Positions 14,605 to 20,423 of a DNA stretch of 64,000 nucleotides are shown here, piece by piece; position 1 is the first letter of the stretch; the number at the start of each line of letters is the position of its first letter. Below the pieces are notes generated by a model. The model ran no database searches and was not told where the DNA came from. It saw nothing but the letters and a program-made list of their open reading frames with translations. A program made the position numbers and the translations under genes. Origin of the DNA: Escherichia phage MIZ4; the sequence record OR167180; one strand, given 5' to 3'.

Positions 14605-14777
14605 TAGTTCACCTTTTGTTTTTCAACGCAATATAGATTCATAAAGCGTTTATTGTCTTCGCTGATAATCTCGCGAGCTTTAACGCAATCCTGCTTTGTT
14701 GCAAACTCAATGCTTGACATATTTCCGTAATTATACATTGAATTGCTTATTGCAATCAATAACCATACAGTAGCCAT
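14604..14777 (-). CDS. small secreted/membrane peptide, tandem paralog of 14437..14604
   Basis: hand-translated MATVWLLIAISNSMYNYGNMSSIEF...LYCVEK. Confidence 0.35.
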   Translation of the reverse strand: MATVWLLIAISNSMYNYGNMSSIEFATKQDCVKAREIISEDNKRFMNLYCVEKQKVN

Positions 14778-14944
14778 TATCCGACAACCTCAAAACATTT
14801 ATCATCAGGAAGAATCGCCCATTCTACACCGTATTCATCCTCGACGTAGTAGCAAGTCCCATCATGTCGAGCATCATATTCATCACCAACAACAAAGCTA
14901 TCAGCTAGTTCAAAATCTACAGCAACACATTTTAATTTGGTCAT
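14777..14944 (-). CDS. hypothetical small protein (55 aa)
   Basis: ORF track 14777..15007 trimmed to internal Met (MTKLKCVAVDF...); track N-terminus lies in promoter cassette. Confidence 0.4.
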   Translation of the reverse strand: MTKLKCVAVDFELADSFVVGDEYDARHDGTCYYVEDEYGVEWAILPDDKCFEVVG

Positions 14945-14969
14945 AATAAAATCCTCACTTGTTTTTGAT

Positions 14970-15004
14970 GGTTGTATTATAGCGGGGATTTCTCCCCGCG
15001 TCAA
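14970..15004 (-). promoter_or_regulatory. early promoter, palindromic spacer GCGGGGA-N4-TCCCCGC
   Basis: minus TTGACG (14999-15004), palindromic 17-nt spacer, TATAAT (14976-14981). Confidence 0.5.
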
Positions 15005-15012
15005 CACTTATT

Positions 15013-17256
15013 TTACAGCTTGCAAGATGAGCACTCGCTAGCGTCTTCCGTACCATCAGCACCATCACGCACGTTAGCGTAATACAGGGTTTTCAGACCG
15101 TAATGTTGAGCGAACAACATATCATCTAACACATCAGCAATATCGACCTTACCAGTCTTATAAGTGCTTGGATCATAGGATGTATTGGAACTAATCGCCT
15201 GATCTACAAACTTCTGCATGATCGCTGCCAGTGTCAGATAGGGCTTGTTACCTTTCTTGATCAGTGTCCAAAGCAGGTCAATAACATCAGCATTATTCTC
15301 TACGTTCGGAATAACCTGATTAAATTGTCCTTCTTTCGATCCTTTAACCGATACAATCCCGCGAGGCGGTTCAATACCGTTTGTGCTGTTAGACACCTGA
15401 GAAGATGACTCACAGGGCATCAGCGCCGAAAGCGTACTGTTACGAATGCCATATTTTTTCAGGTCTTCGCGCAGTTCTTCCCAATCCATCTCATACACCG
15501 GATCAACCAGTTCATCTACTGTCTTTTTGTACCAGTCGATAGGAAGTTCACCGCGACCATAGCGTGTTTCGTGCATCAGTTCGCAAGCACCCTTCTCTTT
15601 AGCCAGTCGCACACTAGCCTTAATCAGAGCATATTGCAAGCGTTCAAACGTTTTATGCGTAAACTCGTTAGCGTCTTCATATGTGAAGAAATTATCTGCT
15701 AGATATGATGCAAAGTTAGTAACACCAACACCCAGAGAGCGACGTTTTTTGGCTGTCAGAGCTTGTTCTACAGGATAATCCTGATAATCTAACAGGTTGT
15801 CAAGTGCACGCACCATAACCATAGCAATGCGTTCTACTTCTTCCATATTTTCGATATCGAAATTACCTAAAACATATGCTGCCAAAGTACATAGGCTAAT
15901 TTCTGAATCATCACGACCCATCGGTTTAGTAGGCAGTGCAATTTCACAACACAGGTTAGATTGTTTAATCGGTGCTACATTACGAATAAACGCCCCGTGA
16001 TTGTTCATGTTGTCTGTGAACGTTGGGTAGATTCGACCAGTGTTAAAACGTTCAATTGCCACCGCTAAAAACAGGTCTTCGGCTTTAACACGAGTTTTAC
16101 GAACACTCGGATCTTTTTCCAGTTTTTCGTAAAGCTGGCGGAAACCTTCCTCATCTCGGAAGTACAGATCCCACAACAAGCCACCCGCAACATCTGGACT
16201 AAACAGAGTAATGTAATCCCGTTTAAGGAATCGCTCTACCATCAGGTTATTAATCTGTACGCCGTAGTCAAGATGACGAATGCGGTTATCTTCCACGCCC
16301 TTATTGTTCTTTAACACAATCAGACTTTCAAACTCTAAATGCCACATTGGGTAATAGAGTGTCGCTGCCCCGCCACGAATACCGCCTTGTGAGCATGACT
16401 TAACGGCAGTCTGAAAATGTTTCCAGAATGGGATAACGCCAGTATGACGAACTTCACCATGCCCGATCTTAGATCCTTCCGCGCGAATCATACCAGCATT
16501 GATACCGATACCAGCACGCTTGCTAATATACTTGATGATTGCATTTGCTGTTTCGTTGATGCCCTGCAATGAGTCATCACTTTCAATCACCACACACGAA
16601 CTAAATTGGCGTGTTGGGGTACGCACACCTGCCATAATCGGAGTAGGCAGAGAGATTTGCTTATTCGCAACAGCATTATAAAAATCAATCACATGTTCAA
16701 GTCGATTTTCTGTCTCTTCTTGATGCAAGCACATACCGATCAGCATATACGCAAATTGCGGTGTTTCGATGATTTTCTTAGTGCTGCGATCCTGAACAAG
16801 ATATTTCTCTTTTAACTGCATCGCACCAGCATAGGTCATTTTAAAATCAAGTTTATGGTCGATGAATTTCTCCAGATATTCCACTTCTTCACGGGAATAC
16901 TTTTGCAGAATTTCACGATCATATTTTCCGGTTGCAATATTACGCTCAATATGGCTGTAAAAATCAATCGGTTGGAATTGACCGTATACTGATTTGCGAA
17001 GCGCGAACATTGCAAGGTTACTTGCTACATATTGATAATCGGGTGTTTCTACAGTAATGTTATCTGCTGCGACCTTAATCAATACTTTCTGGATATCATT
17101 GGTAGACATACCTTCTGTCAGAAGTGGTTCAACCATATCAAACAATTCATATGGATCAACGTTATGACCTTCGGCTGCCGCTTCCAGAATTTTCATTACT
17201 TTTTCTTTTTCAAACGGAACAGTCAGGCCGGAAGACTTAACAACATTTTTAATCAT
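15013..17256 (-). CDS. nrdA: ribonucleotide reductase large subunit (class Ia alpha)
   Basis: ORF track; N-terminal ATP-cone, catalytic-site patterns, C-terminal CxxC tail (ECSSCKL). Confidence 0.95.
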   Translation of the reverse strand: MIKNVVKSSGLTVPFEKEKVMKILEAAAEGHNVDPYELFDMVEPLLTEGMSTNDIQKVLIKVAADNITVETPDYQYVASNLAMFALRKSVYGQFQPIDFYSHIERNIATGKYDREILQKYSREEVEYLEKFIDHKLDFKMTYAGAMQLKEKYLVQDRSTKKIIETPQFAYMLIGMCLHQEETENRLEHVIDFYNAVANKQISLPTPIMAGVRTPTRQFSSCVVIESDDSLQGINETANAIIKYISKRAGIGINAGMIRAEGSKIGHGEVRHTGVIPFWKHFQTAVKSCSQGGIRGGAATLYYPMWHLEFESLIVLKNNKGVEDNRIRHLDYGVQINNLMVERFLKRDYITLFSPDVAGGLLWDLYFRDEEGFRQLYEKLEKDPSVRKTRVKAEDLFLAVAIERFNTGRIYPTFTDNMNNHGAFIRNVAPIKQSNLCCEIALPTKPMGRDDSEISLCTLAAYVLGNFDIENMEEVERIAMVMVRALDNLLDYQDYPVEQALTAKKRRSLGVGVTNFASYLADNFFTYEDANEFTHKTFERLQYALIKASVRLAKEKGACELMHETRYGRGELPIDWYKKTVDELVDPVYEMDWEELREDLKKYGIRNSTLSALMPCESSSQVSNSTNGIEPPRGIVSVKGSKEGQFNQVIPNVENNADVIDLLWTLIKKGNKPYLTLAAIMQKFVDQAISSNTSYDPSTYKTGKVDIADVLDDMLFAQHYGLKTLYYANVRDGADGTEDASECSSCKL

Positions 17257-17302
17257 ATTACCTCACTTCATATTTTAGCAGGAACAAGTTTATCCTCCAT
17301 AT

Positions 17303-17318
17303 TGGGGGCTTTCGCCCC
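17303..17318 (-). promoter_or_regulatory. intercistronic hairpin GGGGGC-GAAA-GCCCCC (minus-strand sense) between td and nrdA
   Basis: perfect 6-bp GC stem with GNRA loop; same hairpin occurs on plus strand at 29188..29203. Confidence 0.4.
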
Positions 17319-17324
17319 CTTTGT

Positions 17325-18557
17325 TTATACTGCCATTTGAGCTGTGATTGCTGGATGGCTTTGATAGTTGTGAATTTTAAAGTCTTTCGGAGTCTTTGTC
17401 AATACCTCATCTAAAGATTTAAATTCCGGCAACTCAATTGTTGGTTTATCAAACGGAACACGGCTTAACTGTTCCATAACTTGATCAAAATGGTTTTTGT
17501 AAATGTGAGTATCTCCACCAGAGAAAATCAGTTCTCCTACCTCAAGATCACACATTTTCGCTATGATGTGAGTTAACAGCGCATAGCTGGCAACATTAAA
17601 GGGCAAGCCCAAAAAGCTGTCTACGCTTCGCTGAAACCACATACAAGACAATTTACCTTCATTGACATAGAATTGCACGAAAGGATGACATACACCTAAT
17701 ACAGCATTATGTGTTCCTTGTACGTTCCATGAGTCAATAATGATCCGGCGATCCGTTGGATTGTTTTTAATTTGTTCAATCACGTTTTGTAACTGGTCTT
17801 CCCAAATCTTCGGGCGATAGACATATTCTTCATCGTCTTTAGTGCTCGATGTGTCTACGTCCATACTAGCAAAGATCGTGGTATCTGGTGCTAAAATATC
17901 CCCACCCAGATAATCACTATCAAGTAGATAACCGAAATAACCATCATCTACCCATTCCTGGAATCCCCACAAGCAATATGCATCATTAACAAAATTAGAT
18001 TGAGTCTTCCAGTGATCTGCTACTAAGAATTGATTATATTCAGAATCAAACTCTTCATAACGCATACCACGCCAGATAGCACATAAACGGTCTTCTGTTT
18101 CATTGGTTGGAGTAAAGTCTTCTACCCACGGGTGCTTAAATGTATGTGTATATTTGCTCTTAACGCGCTTAATTTTGATTTCACCGTGTGGATGAATCGG
18201 TTTGCGTCGCCACGCCATACCATACATATTGCCGACATTATAACCATTGAATCGCAAAGGATTCTTTTCTTTCATATCAAGACAGTTACCGCGCCAAATG
18301 TCGAAGGCTTCTTCGTCAAACTGTCCGCGTGTAATTTCCTGTAAGCGACGGCGGTCAAGTGATCCCTCCATAAACCATAGCAATTCGCCAATTACAGAGG
18401 CTGTAGCCATCTTTTTAGTTGTCAGTAATGGAAAACCCTTGCTTAAGTCAATTCGCATCTCTGCGCCGAATTTAGAGAGCGTACCTACCCCCGTGCGGTC
18501 TTCACGAGGCCAGCCATTATCAAGAACATCACGCAATAGTTTCAAATATTCTTTCAT
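17325..18557 (-). CDS. td: thymidylate synthase family protein with ~125-aa insertion in the small domain; no intron
   Basis: ORF track; DRTGVGT, catalytic CHPFVQFYV, RSVDSFLGLPFNVASYALLTH; insertion between YGMAWR and DQLQNV. Confidence 0.85.
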   Translation of the reverse strand: MKEYLKLLRDVLDNGWPREDRTGVGTLSKFGAEMRIDLSKGFPLLTTKKMATASVIGELLWFMEGSLDRRRLQEITRGQFDEEAFDIWRGNCLDMKEKNPLRFNGYNVGNMYGMAWRRKPIHPHGEIKIKRVKSKYTHTFKHPWVEDFTPTNETEDRLCAIWRGMRYEEFDSEYNQFLVADHWKTQSNFVNDAYCLWGFQEWVDDGYFGYLLDSDYLGGDILAPDTTIFASMDVDTSSTKDDEEYVYRPKIWEDQLQNVIEQIKNNPTDRRIIIDSWNVQGTHNAVLGVCHPFVQFYVNEGKLSCMWFQRSVDSFLGLPFNVASYALLTHIIAKMCDLEVGELIFSGGDTHIYKNHFDQVMEQLSRVPFDKPTIELPEFKSLDEVLTKTPKDFKIHNYQSHPAITAQMAV

Positions 18558-18798
18558 CCCACATCACCTTTTTCTTATTGATTGCTTTCTTACGCAGTTT
18601 TGCTACTGTCTCGTCAATATCGATAAAGACAACGCCACGGTCGAATATAGTAGCAGGTCTTGAGATATCGCTATTTTCTTGCACAGGAAGCCATGATGCG
18701 CTCGCTTCATCATAGAGATATTGTAAACCGTAATAATCTACGGCTACTGCGTAGTTTTCACTGGTAGCCGTCCATAATTGAATAATACCGACTTTCAT
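18529..18798 (-). CDS. hypothetical protein (89 aa)
   Basis: ORF track 18529..18825 trimmed to ATG 18796-18798. Confidence 0.4.
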   Translation of the reverse strand: MKVGIIQLWTATSENYAVAVDYYGLQYLYDEASASWLPVQENSDISRPATIFDRGVVFIDIDETVAKLRKKAINKKKVMWDERIFETIA

Positions 18799-18800
18799 TA

Positions 18801-18890
18801 TTGTTCCCGTCCGCAATGTAAGCACCGACTACCAGCAAACATCAAAGATTCACCACAATGTTTGCACTCATAATCTGTAAGAATTTTCAT
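18801..18890 (-). CDS. zinc-ribbon mini-protein (30 aa)
   Basis: hand-translated MKILTDYECKHCGESLMFAGSRCLHCGREQ; two CxxC pairs; below ORF-track cutoff. Confidence 0.3.
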
Positions 18891-18891
18891 G

Positions 18892-19473
18892 TTACGCCTT
18901 CTTACGTTCTAAAATTTGTTCGCTGATCAGGTAATTATCAAGGAAGTAATTATGTTCTTCTTTGGTTACAAAGTCAAAATACAATTCCTGAATCATTTCC
19001 TTAGAGATACCAACATCATATTCAAATGGATCGTTGATCCCTGAACGTTGAACATACGTTAACACAATACGGTCCGCAAAGTCAACCGCTTTTTCAATCA
19101 GGGAAGGTCCGCCAATAACGCTTACCAAACCTTGCAATTTCTCTATGACTTCTAATAATTCCTTCAATCCACCATCATTAGTAATCGCGGTATACACATC
19201 TGGTTGGTCGCCGTTTTTTGCTTTCGGTGCTGGCTTACTGGTATCGGTGCTAACAACCACATTCACACGACCTTCCAGTGCTTTAGGGAGACTTTCAAAG
19301 GTATTACGTCCCATTACAACCGCCGCAAGTTCAACATCTCCCATAGTGCGCATTTTAAAGTTTTCCATGTCCTTTTTAATTGGACGCCCCCAGGGTAAAC
19401 CGCCTTTAAAACCAAAAGCCCAATTTTCATCTGACATTTTAGTGTCACCAATAGCAAATACACATTGAATCAT
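18892..19473 (-). CDS. frd: dihydrofolate reductase
   Basis: ORF track; GGLPWGR and VVMGRNTFESLP motifs; 193 aa as in T4. Confidence 0.9.
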   Translation of the reverse strand: MIQCVFAIGDTKMSDENWAFGFKGGLPWGRPIKKDMENFKMRTMGDVELAAVVMGRNTFESLPKALEGRVNVVVSTDTSKPAPKAKNGDQPDVYTAITNDGGLKELLEVIEKLQGLVSVIGGPSLIEKAVDFADRIVLTYVQRSGINDPFEYDVGISKEMIQELYFDFVTKEEHNYFLDNYLISEQILERKKA

Positions 19474-19488
19474 AATATAAATCTCCCA

Positions 19489-19818
19489 TCAAATCAGTTT
19501 GAAATAGTTTTCGTTTACATTTTCTTCTGTGATTGCTGTCTTAAATTCTTGACCGTTATCCGGTGTGATGAAATAACGGTCAGAATAATCACGAAAACGT
19601 TTTAAGTGAGATACCCCAACATTAACACCATTTTCCCAAAAACGAAAGGTAATCATTTTTGGTTCATATCGATAGTCGCTGGTTAACACAGTACCATCCC
19701 CGCGACGGGCTTCATAAACCGTAATACATTCACGGTTAGCGGCTTTAAGGCATTCTTCAATAGTTCCGCACGAGATAATACTTACTTTTTCATCTACGAT
19801 TTGTTCTACAGTCCACAT
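19489..19818 (-). CDS. hypothetical protein
   Basis: ORF track 19489..19851 trimmed to ATG with GAGGA RBS. Confidence 0.45.
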   Translation of the reverse strand: MWTVEQIVDEKVSIISCGTIEECLKAANRECITVYEARRGDGTVLTSDYRYEPKMITFRFWENGVNVGVSHLKRFRDYSDRYFITPDNGQEFKTAITEENVNENYFKLI

Positions 19819-19840
19819 AATATAATCCTCTCTTTGTTTC

Positions 19841-19877
19841 GATATGTGCATTATACACTATTGCGTTACGCTGTCAA
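19841..19877 (-). promoter_or_regulatory. early promoter (TTGACA / TATAAT-like)
   Basis: read directly on minus strand. Confidence 0.4.
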
Positions 19878-20423
19878 CTCTTTTTCAAAAGATTTTACGA
19901 TATACATTAAATTTCTAATTTCGGACGGTGGGATTGTCTCTGTCCACCCGTCCGGCATAACTTTTTGCGATACGTGGTGTGTTTTATTACTAAGTTTTTG
20001 TCGAACAATACCCTCTAATTTTAGGGGTATGTTTCCATCTTTAGTTGTTAGCGTATGGAATATAAAGTGACGAACGGAAGACACGCTGGATTGCTGTTTC
20101 ATCCTTTCCTCGGCTTTTTTGTTGGTGATTCCGAACTTATACCCGACAATACAGCCCCAATTATCAACCAGTTTTTGTATATAAAAGGTTCCTGGTTTTC
20201 TTTTATCATAACCTCCTTTTTGAGTGGGACATTTCGGACACTGCATATCATCTAAAGATGCGACATATTTGCCATGAACGCAGCAATCCATACTTAGATT
20301 CTTTTCTCTTGCATTAATATACCCATTAATAAATCCATTGGATTTTACTTTTTCATTATGAGAACAAAATTCATCAATTCGTATATTTGCTGATATAACA
20401 TTTTTTCTTCTCATTCGTTCCAT
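19866..20423 (-). CDS. zinc-finger protein with T5orf172/GIY-YIG-like motif
   Basis: ORF track; Cys/His cluster N-terminally, then GTFYIQKL...GYKFGITNKKAEERM. Confidence 0.45.
   Translation of the reverse strand: MERMRRKNVISANIRIDEFCSHNEKVKSNGFINGYINAREKNLSMDCCVHGKYVASLDDMQCPKCPTQKGGYDKRKPGTFYIQKLVDNWGCIVGYKFGITNKKAEERMKQQSSVSSVRHFIFHTLTTKDGNIPLKLEGIVRQKLSNKTHHVSQKVMPDGWTETIPPSEIRNLMYIVKSFEKELTA

What the first reader, a model, noticed from the sequence alone, without database searches (positions are those of the whole stretch)
17325..18557. Thymidylate synthase is intron-less but carries a ~125-aa insertion
The td ORF is continuous (410 aa) with all catalytic motifs intact, so it lacks the group I intron I recall in T4 td. 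Between the YG(K/M)xWR segment and the DQ..V...I..NP.DRR segment it carries an extra ~125 residues (RKPIHPHGEIKIK...YVYRPKIW) rich in aromatic and acidic residues. This is the variable small-domain position, but the insert is unusually large. It has no intein hallmarks.
Basis: partly seen in the sequence, partly recalled or inferred. Interest (0 to 1): 0.5.

Follow-up and report, generated by a model that had tools for sequence, protein, structure and literature searches.

The report
Decayed homing-endonuclease domain inside thymidylate synthase
The extra 135 residues in this RB49-like phage's thymidylate synthase are a worn-down, unspliced remnant of an HNH-type homing-endonuclease module, and larger, apparently mobile versions sit at exactly the same loop of the enzyme in many other phages.

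Summary
It carries a single 135-aa block (aa 118-252) where E. coli has 10 and T4 about 5 residues. The window is a Krischvirus (RB49-like), and all 58 close relatives have the block.

The insert is not a grown "small domain". It is homologous to the divergent HNH module of free-standing phage homing-endonuclease-like genes, the IPA-HNH family of ICP1 Gp59 (hhalign probability 99.7%). At least 50 divergent phage thymidylate synthases carry this module in frame at the same loop, in sizes from 127 to 284 aa.

Long copies are basic and keep the family's near-invariant D-K-D, Cys and Asn. The RB49 copy is acidic, reads D-S-D, has lost the cysteines, the N-terminal beta domain and the C-terminal tail, yet is predicted to fold (pLDDT 92.6) and evolves under purifying selection (dN/dS about 0.2).

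Three results indicate the element moves, or moved, between td genes: presence/absence in syntenic phages, a mosaic gene whose flanks were swapped along with the insert, and modules more alike than their host enzymes. No intein, intron or hidden ORF was found. Nuclease activity of the intact copies, and any present role of the RB49 relic, are untested. I found no published description.

The parts
17325..18557 (-). td gene: 410-aa thymidylate synthase plus stop codon, one continuous ORF
18207..18557 (-). N-terminal ThyA core, aa 1-117, ending in YGMAWR
18243..18293 (-). Separate small extra segment (aa 89-105, RGNCLDMKEKNPLRFNG) at the L. casei small-domain insertion site. The flank motif RFNGxNxGNMY occurs in 28 of 50 insert-bearing and 0 of 96 insert-less TS sampled.
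17802..18206 (-). 135-aa in-frame insert (aa 118-252): degenerate IPA-HNH-type homing-endonuclease module
18168..18188 (-). N-terminal strand of the insert (aa 124-130, predicted beta strand). Read as one half of a two-stranded stalk; the pairing was not computed.
   Evidence: E7-13 of the insert model
17865..18101 (-). Relic of the HNH-like central module (aa 153-231): helices RLCAIWRGMRY and DAYCLWGFQEWVD, then a beta hairpin LLDSDY...DTTIF. The family signature D-K-D/Cys/Asn is degraded to D-S-D/Thr/Asp.
18033..18044 (-). Four codons (SEYN, aa 172-175) that are present or absent in frame among Krischvirus td genes
17808..17825 (-). C-terminal strand of the insert (aa 245-250, YVYRPK). The motif [YV]x[YV]RPK[IL][YW] is shared by most insert-bearing TS.
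17328..17801 (-). C-terminal ThyA core, aa 253-410, with catalytic Cys290 at 17688-17690
17598..17615 (-). FLGLPF codons: the position homologous to the T4 td group I intron (I-TevI) insertion site, uninterrupted here
17508..17784 (-). Stretch replaced by a divergent allele (50-85% identity, flanks 98-100%) in Krischvirus KFS-EC and GEC-3S, starting 18 nt after the 3' end of the insert

Best explanation
The insert is a fossil of a selfish element. An IPA-HNH-type homing-endonuclease module entered td in frame, at the tip of a surface loop (E. coli residues 100-109), so the enzyme tolerates it without RNA or protein splicing. The intact module has an SH3/Tudor-like beta domain, a divergent HNH-like core with a D-K-D...N signature, and a tail that matches Pfam I-HmuI_NUMOD-like or NUMOD1 in some long family members. 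In the lineage leading to Krischvirus the element decayed: the beta domain, the tail, the cysteines, the Lys and Asn of the signature, and the positive charge were all lost. What remains is a compact helical-plus-hairpin domain whose terminal strands are read as a two-stranded stalk. It is translated as part of Td and kept under moderate purifying selection, most likely because a misfolding or partial deletion inside an essential enzyme is harmful. An acquired secondary role is possible. Shown: homology, same-site recurrence, the decay series, predicted foldedness, selective constraint, and absence of an intron, intein or hidden ORF. Inferred: the homing mechanism of the intact relatives, the inactivity of the RB49 copy, and the stalk pairing.
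For: Homology. The jumbo-phage insert hits PHROG 'HNH endonuclease' families at E=1.7e-33, 1e-25 and 1.7e-20. A profile built only from free-standing proteins hits window td aa 146-251 at E=1.9e-8. The insert profile against ICP1 Gp59, a founding IPA-HNH member (PMC10448857), gives hhalign probability 99.7%, E=4.9e-26. The family is very large: 67,231 representatives at E<=1e-3, and 1,388 phage records with 2,387 places.

Same site. All 50 insert-bearing TS have the block between E. coli R99 and D110, with sizes of 127-284 aa.

Decay. Copies of >=194 aa nearly all keep D-K-D, C and N, as free-standing members do (97-99%). RB49 reads D-S-D, T, D, with both other cysteines lost. Long inserts have mean pI 8.8 and net charge +7.6, while RB49 has pI 4.8 and net charge -11.

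Constraint. dN/dS of the insert is 0.14-0.6, typically about 0.2, against 0.02-0.07 for most core comparisons.

Mobility of relatives. P0041 (552 aa) has a core 92-93% identical to insert-less P0071 in syntenic phage contigs. P0038 is identical to UE-S1 TS at both ends, but the insert plus about 60 aa of upstream and 40 aa of downstream coding flank are replaced. In 82 of 780 pairs the module is >=10 points more identical than the most conserved TS block, for example core 30% against module 59%.
Confidence: 0.7

Rival explanations
1. Exapted domain: the relic now has a selected function in Td, such as a docking surface for partners of the T4-type dNTP-synthesising complex or a regulatory interaction, rather than being merely tolerated.
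For: Purifying selection on the insert with dN/dS of about 0.2. The relic is retained with the same boundaries across T4-like lineages whose cores are 63-68% identical. The fold prediction is confident. The motif LWGFQE[FWY]VD is conserved in many TS-resident copies but not in free-standing ones. From memory, surface inserts of T4 TS were proposed as protein-protein contact sites in the T4 TS crystal structure paper.
Against: There is no direct evidence of any partner or activity. Constraint against misfolding inside an essential dimeric enzyme could alone give dN/dS of about 0.2. Other lineages truncated the element differently (P0027/P0030, P0023), and T4 itself manages with a 5-residue loop.
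Confidence: 0.2
2. The RB49 Td fusion protein is still an active site-specific homing endonuclease.
For: It is homologous to a putative HEG family. A recombinant patch lies next to the insert in some Krischvirus genomes.
Against: The signature residues are lost (D-S-D; Cys to Glu/Ala/Thr; Asn to Asp). The alpha helix of the beta-beta-alpha unit and both flanking DNA-binding domains are deleted, and the domain is strongly acidic. The insert is fixed in all 58 Krischvirus genomes, so no empty target remains within the genus.
Confidence: 0.03
3. One reading: an ordinary lineage-specific expansion of the variable small-domain loop with no mobile-element ancestry.
For: This loop varies in length among TS: 5 aa in T4, 10 in E. 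coli, 22-34 in some phage TS.
Against: There is significant sequence and profile homology to free-standing endonuclease-like proteins. The block is not at the L. casei insertion site.
Confidence: 0.02
4. Intein, in-frame intron, or a ShiLan-like element with a hidden out-of-frame endonuclease that is removed or separately expressed.
For: It is an in-frame insertion in a conserved gene, which is typical of inteins. The ShiLan precedent exists (PMC11855218).
Against: No Hint or intein domain and no junction nucleophiles or HN. No Rfam intron. In the full-length inserts of L002 and L011 the only alternative-frame ORF of >=50 aa on the coding strand is a 59-aa one in L011 that only brushes the 5' edge of the insert; nothing of that size lies within either insert. 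In the window insert the only one is a 41-aa ORF. The endonuclease homology is in the td frame itself.
Confidence: 0.01
5. Assembly or frameshift artefact that merges two ORFs.
For: None.
Against: The gene structure is identical in 58 independently sequenced genomes, and codon-level purifying selection acts across the insert.
Confidence: 0.01

Closest known systems
IPA-HNH homing endonuclease genes (ICP1 Gp59, Gp115-116, Gp209; Barth, Dunham & Seed 2023, PMC10448857)
   Same: The central module is the same: hhalign probability 99.7% to Gp59. tblastn with the module hits the ICP1 gene 'previously called GP59' and the Barbaviruses named in that paper. The module is too divergent for Pfam HNH models. 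It is associated with essential nucleotide-metabolism and replication genes.
   Different: Those are free-standing genes with a C-terminal AP2 domain. Here the module is fused in frame inside thymidylate synthase, lacks AP2, and in RB49 has lost the signature residues. That paper does not mention thymidylate synthase and states that T4 lacks IPA-HNH genes.
ShiLan domain in a mycobacteriophage DNA methylase (Arsenault, Gosselin & Gogarten 2025, PMC11855218)
   Same: An insertion in a phage enzyme gene that reads through in frame and is neither intein nor intron. It has a sporadic, homing-like distribution, is predicted to project away from the host enzyme, and is linked to an HNH endonuclease.
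   Different: In ShiLan the HNH is encoded in a different reading frame from the host gene. Here the HNH-like module is in the host frame and is part of the enzyme polypeptide, with no sizeable alternative-frame ORF within the insert. The host genes and the HNH subfamilies differ.
Inteins with decaying homing-endonuclease domains (the 'homing cycle' of invasion, fixation, degeneration and loss; PMC1654191)
   Same: In-frame residence at a fixed site in a conserved enzyme, a size series from full to minimal forms, and loss of endonuclease residues after fixation.
   Different: There is no Hint splicing domain and no splicing. The host protein keeps the element permanently.
T4 td group I intron with I-TevI
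   Same: The same host gene, td, is targeted by a homing element. Insertion next to conserved, functionally critical codons is typical of homing sites.
   Different: The site differs (G183|L184 in T4, about 65 codons downstream of the RB49 insert). That element is removed at the RNA level and encodes a GIY-YIG enzyme.
L. casei ThyA 50-residue small-domain insert, and the eukaryotic TS inserts (the latter from memory)
   Same: Lineage-specific surface insertions tolerated by ThyA. From memory, the RB49 large-insert loop corresponds to the loop carrying the 8-residue human insert at 146-153.
   Different: The L. casei insert is at the preceding loop, is not related to any endonuclease, and is much shorter.

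Membership tests
Thymidylate synthase ThyA (PF00303) | Full-length match to the family profile | tested here: met
   Pfam positions 1-266 of 266, E=1.1e-84. NCBIfam TIGR03284 scores 283.6 bits against a cutoff of 108.
Thymidylate synthase ThyA (PF00303) | Catalytic Cys and dUMP/folate-binding residues (E. coli R21, E58, W80, Y94, R126, R127, C146, H147, Q165, R166, S167, D169, N177, H207, Y209) | tested here: met
   All are conserved at the aligned positions.
Thymidylate synthase ThyA (PF00303) | Enzymatic activity of the insert-bearing protein | not testable with these tools
   Needs an enzyme assay or complementation of a thyA mutant.
IPA-HNH homing endonuclease genes (PMC10448857) | Divergent HNH-like domain homologous to ICP1 Gp59/Gp115/Gp209 | tested here: met
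   The profile of inserts, with RB49 as first row, matches Gp59 at probability 99.7%, E=4.9e-26. A profile of free-standing proteins only hits RB49 td aa 146-251 at E=1.9e-8.
IPA-HNH homing endonuclease genes (PMC10448857) | Near-invariant core residues of the module (R-C-Y, D-K-D, T-C, N) | tested here: not met
   RB49 has E/E/F, D-S-D, T-T and D at these positions. Free-standing members keep them in 93-99% of cases.
IPA-HNH homing endonuclease genes (PMC10448857) | C-terminal AP2 DNA-binding domain | tested here: not met
IPA-HNH homing endonuclease genes (PMC10448857) | Free-standing gene next to essential genes | tested here: not met
   The module is fused in frame within td.
IPA-HNH homing endonuclease genes (PMC10448857) | Site-specific DNA cleavage and homing | not testable with these tools
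   No experimental data were found for the family. For the RB49 copy it is unlikely, given.
HNH / beta-beta-alpha-Me nuclease superfamily | Beta-beta-alpha metal-finger fold with a catalytic His (or equivalent) and a metal-binding Asn/His | tested here: inconclusive
Intein | Hint domain blocks, an N-terminal C/S/T, and a C-terminal HN followed by C/S/T | tested here: not met
   No Pfam hit. The junctions are R|KPIHPHG and PKIW|EDQ, and the junction residues vary among 50 homologues.
Group I / II intron | Ribozyme structure interrupting the ORF | tested here: not met
   Rfam at E<=10 finds no intron in 16800-19000. The ORF is continuous and shows codon-level selection.
ShiLan-type insertion (hidden out-of-frame HNH) | Endonuclease ORF in an alternative frame of the insert | tested here: not met
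   No alternative-frame ORF of >=50 aa lies within the inserts of L002 or L011 on the coding strand; a 59-aa ORF in L011 only brushes the 5' edge. In the window there is only a 41-aa ORF.

The most novel reading that the evidence does not exclude
The full-length relatives of this insert (for example in the jumbo phages KP13-7 and UE-S1, Vibrio phage D69, and the metagenomic P0041/P0042) may be a so far undescribed class of homing element. In this reading an HNH-type endonuclease needs no intron or intein because it lives in frame in a permissive surface hairpin of an essential enzyme. The thymidylate synthase fusion protein itself, an obligate homodimer that would present two nuclease modules, would cut insert-less td alleles at the conserved YGxQWR/DQL site and copy the element in, together with flanking exon sequence. 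The RB49 block would then be the end stage of that life cycle, possibly exapted.
Probability: 0.3. Interest if true: 0.85.

Novelty: new variant of a known kind. Interest (0 to 1): 0.62.

Why it matters
Homing endonucleases are thought to survive inside essential genes only by hiding in self-splicing introns or inteins, or by sitting between genes. Here the same kind of module is simply translated as a domain of thymidylate synthase, at one fixed loop, in at least 50 divergent phage enzymes. All stages are visible, from apparently intact to fossil. That gives a natural example of domain gain by a selfish element. It also gives a concrete, testable candidate for splicing-free homing. It explains an oddity of a long-sequenced model phage genus (RB49, Phi1, JSE). 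Finally, it marks a loop of ThyA that tolerates insertions of up to about 280 residues, which is useful for protein engineering.

Tried and rejected
- Pfam and NCBIfam on the RB49 insert, the jumbo insert and free-standing members found no family, not even sub-threshold HNH.
- A sequence profile against all PDB chains found nothing at E<=10.
- The afdb50 fold library was not available.
- L004 shows a 'genes-in-pieces' TS, but the split spans a run of N and the frame stays open up to the gap, so it is probably an assembly artefact and was not used as evidence.
- I tested whether the 28-aa loops of 'insert-less' P0071/P0044 are deletion scars of the element. No convincing protein or DNA alignment emerged, so the idea was dropped.
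- I looked for a co-conversion gradient between syntenic insert-plus L011 and insert-minus L013. The 5' exon is 0.8-0.95 identical right up to the junction, so there is no clear signal.
- An NJ tree of modules gave 9 TS-only clades, with some TS copies as close to free-standing proteins as to other TS copies. This is too crude to decide between single and multiple captures.
- The neighbouring small ORFs (18529-18825, 19489-19851, 19866-20423, 14777-15007) have no Pfam family.
- No second copy of the module occurs in the 64-kb window.
- Literature searches for RB49 td insertion, TS plus HNH plus domain insertion, and unspliced in-frame endonuclease insertions found no description of this feature.

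Full report
**What is there**

The window is a Krischvirus, an RB49-like T4-type coliphage. The td protein is 100% identical to that of Escherichia phage MIZ5 and 99.5% to RB49, and 58 phage records carry it at >=90% identity.

The ORF lies on the minus strand at 17325-18557 and is 410 aa with no interruption. It is flanked by frd (18892-19473) and nrdA (15013-17256), as in T4.

Pfam's thymidylate synthase model is matched end to end. Every catalytic or substrate-binding residue I checked is conserved.

Alignment with E. coli, L. casei and T4 enzymes shows a single contiguous extra block of 135 residues (aa 118-252, window 17802-18206). It sits between the YGMAWR motif and EDQLQ, where E. coli has 10 and T4 about 5 residues.

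This is not the L. casei small-domain insertion site. That site lies one loop upstream, where RB49 has a separate extra segment of about 15 residues.

There is no intron. Rfam finds none, and the T4 intron site, about 65 codons downstream of the insert, is intact.

**What the insert is**

On its own the RB49 insert matches no Pfam family. tblastn, however, finds distant copies at 31-35% identity inside the thymidylate synthases of three groups: jumbo phages Klebsiella KP13-7 and phiKp_21, E. coli UE-S1, and Vibrio phages D69, D181 and D148. The Vibrio genes are annotated 'HNH endonuclease' although Pfam sees only TS.

Those inserts are larger (196-245 aa). They hit three PHROG 'HNH endonuclease' families at E=1e-20 to 1e-33.

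A profile of the inserts retrieves free-standing phage proteins with the same module. An exhaustive search finds 67,231 representative proteins at E<=1e-3. In isolated phages the module occurs in 1,388 records at 2,387 places, annotated 'hypothetical', 'HNH endonuclease' or 'DNA-binding protein'.

One of these hits is ICP1 Gp59, located just downstream of the DNA polymerase gene. Gp59 is a founding member of the 'IPA-HNH' homing endonuclease genes defined by Barth et al. 2023 (PMC10448857). The insert profile matches Gp59 with hhalign probability 99.7%, E=4.9e-26.

As an independent check, a profile built only from free-standing proteins hits the window's td at aa 146-251 with E=1.9e-8 and hits nothing else in the 64 kb.

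**Structure**

AlphaFold2 on the RB49 insert, using an alignment of 37 homologues, gives pLDDT 92.6 and pTM 0.85. The model has two terminal strands, which I read as a stalk (the pairing was not computed), three helical segments and a beta hairpin.

A free-standing member, P0013, gives pLDDT 96.1. It shows an N-terminal beta domain, a core that ends in beta(LDKD)-beta-alpha(N151), and a C-terminal beta-sheet-plus-helix domain.

The HNH relationship is therefore plausible. It agrees with the HHsearch-based claim of Barth et al., but it is not proven here. Lys occupies the position of the canonical His across the whole family, and no solved structure is detectable by sequence.

**A same-site family and a decay series**

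Combining the searches, 50 thymidylate synthases carry the module. These include 21 different 50%-identity representatives, with N-terminal halves 31-62% identical to E. coli where BLAST aligned them. All have the module between the residues equivalent to E. coli R99 and D110.

The insert sizes form a series:
- 244-284 aa: beta domain, core and an HTH-like tail that I read from sequence as NUMOD-like. Pfam matches I-HmuI_NUMOD-like or NUMOD1 in 7 of 62 long family members.
- About 195 aa: no beta domain.
- 127-147 aa: core relic only. This group includes the RB49 clade, P0023, and the separately truncated P0027/P0030.

Copies of >=194 aa almost all keep the D-K-D, Cys and Asn that are 96-99% conserved in free-standing members. 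The short copies have lost them. RB49 reads D-S-D, Thr and Asp, with the other two cysteines gone.

Long inserts are basic (mean pI 8.8, net charge +7.6). The RB49 insert is acidic (pI 4.8, net charge -11).

This is the pattern expected for a homing element that has been fixed and is degenerating.

**Evidence that the element moves between td genes**

1. P0041 (552 aa) and P0042 (559 aa) have cores 87-93% identical to insert-less enzymes. They sit in phage contigs syntenic with the insert-less ones, in the order DUF2201 ... DHFR-TS ... methyltransferase-terminase.
2. P0038 is 90-100% identical to UE-S1 TS over aa 1-55 and 80-90% identical over aa 426-546. The insert plus about 60 upstream and about 40 downstream residues are replaced by a different variant whose upstream flank resembles the Vibrio D69 type. 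This block replacement looks like a co-conversion tract.
3. Module and host identities are only weakly correlated (r=0.36-0.47). In 82 of 780 pairs the module is >=10 points more identical than even the catalytic block of TS, for example P0173 against P0267 at core 30% and module 59%.
4. A flank motif (RFNGxNxGNMY) just upstream of the site occurs in 28 of 50 insert-bearing enzymes, including ones with otherwise bacterial-type N-termini, and in 0 of 96 insert-less ones. The insert-less sample is biased.

The direction of individual events, and whether the fusion protein itself is the nuclease, remain open.

**The RB49 copy today**

Among seven Krischvirus genes the insert has dN/dS of 0.14-0.6, typically about 0.2. 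Most core comparisons give 0.02-0.07. The exception is the C-terminal core in pairs involving KFS-EC or GEC-3S, at about 0.13. The only indel is four codons, in frame.

The insert is therefore translated and constrained, though more loosely than the enzyme. Similar-sized relics persist in metagenomic T4-like lineages whose cores are 63-68% identical to RB49 (P0005-7, and P0023 on a 169-kb contig).

I conclude that it is a folded passenger domain that can no longer act as a nuclease or DNA binder. It is kept because damaging it would damage an essential enzyme, and a secondary role cannot be excluded.

The other readings have evidence against them:
- Intein: no Hint or intein Pfam hit and no junction nucleophiles.
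- Intron: nothing in Rfam.
- Hidden out-of-frame ORF, as in the ShiLan element (PMC11855218): nothing of >=50 aa within the inserts.
- Artefact: the same structure appears in 58 genomes and is under codon-level selection.

**Novelty**

The RB49 td sequence has been public for two decades and is routinely annotated simply as thymidylate synthase. I found no paper describing the insert or any in-frame IPA-HNH module in thymidylate synthase.

The closest published cases are the free-standing IPA-HNH genes and the ShiLan insertion, whose HNH is out of frame. I therefore rate this a new variant of a known kind. The RB49 copy itself is a fossil. The interesting biology lies in its intact relatives.

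Noticed in passing
window 17508-17784 (minus strand; td nt 774-1050), compared with L009 (KFS-EC) and L010 (GEC-3S): In two Krischvirus genomes a patch of about 280 nt of td, starting 18 nt after the 3' end of the insert, is only 50-85% identical to the window, while both flanks are 98-100% identical (dS about 0.9 against about 0.1). It looks like gene conversion from a divergent td allele next to the old insertion site. Metagenomic P0003 shows the same pattern: N-core 100%, C-core 82%.
   Followed up: partly
P0038 (546 aa, metagenomic) compared with L003 (UE-S1 td): A mosaic thymidylate synthase. Both ends are nearly identical to jumbo phage UE-S1, while the middle is replaced by another variant: the insert plus about 60 aa of upstream and about 40 aa of downstream coding flank.
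   Followed up: yes
L004 4450-6152 (ENA ERZ15609937 NODE_1756): A very divergent TS-like gene (RSGD..., atypical C-terminal half) also carries the module at the same site. It appears split into 128-aa and 383-aa ORFs, but the break spans a run of N and the downstream frame is open up to the gap. An IS605-family OrfB/TnpB gene (Cas12f1-like TNB domain hit), an NAD-dependent ligase and a class II RNR gene are nearby.
   Followed up: partly
window 18529-18825 (minus strand): A 98-aa ORF with no family overlaps the td start codon by 29 nt. Relatives annotate a 270-nt hypothetical gene here (109-378 in L005-L010), which may be translationally coupled to td.
   Followed up: no
window 19866-20423 and 19489-19851 (minus strand), between frd and gene 32: Two ORFs of 185 and 120 aa have no Pfam match. 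The 185-aa one has Cys-rich and GxxYIxK-like stretches that reminded me of GIY-YIG/T5orf172-type genes, but nothing reached E<=0.01.
   Followed up: partly
L001 2641-4074 (Vibrio phage D69; also D181 and D148): A 477-aa gene annotated 'HNH endonuclease' is in fact a divergent thymidylate-synthase-family protein with the in-frame module. Its core is only about 38% identical to RB49 Td and it has unusual substitutions such as YPVAFR and an inserted 'DSDTNEFD', so its substrate may differ.
   Followed up: partly
L011/L012, L013/L014 and L015 (metagenomic phage contigs): In related phages with the same DHFR-TS neighbourhood, the TS loop exists in two states: 28 aa (L013/L014) and 281-284 aa (L011/L012, L015). 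A third state of 5 aa occurs in closely related TS proteins (P0046, P0132) whose contigs were not fetched. The insert-less L013 is closer to insert-bearing L011 than L011 is to insert-bearing L015.
   Followed up: partly
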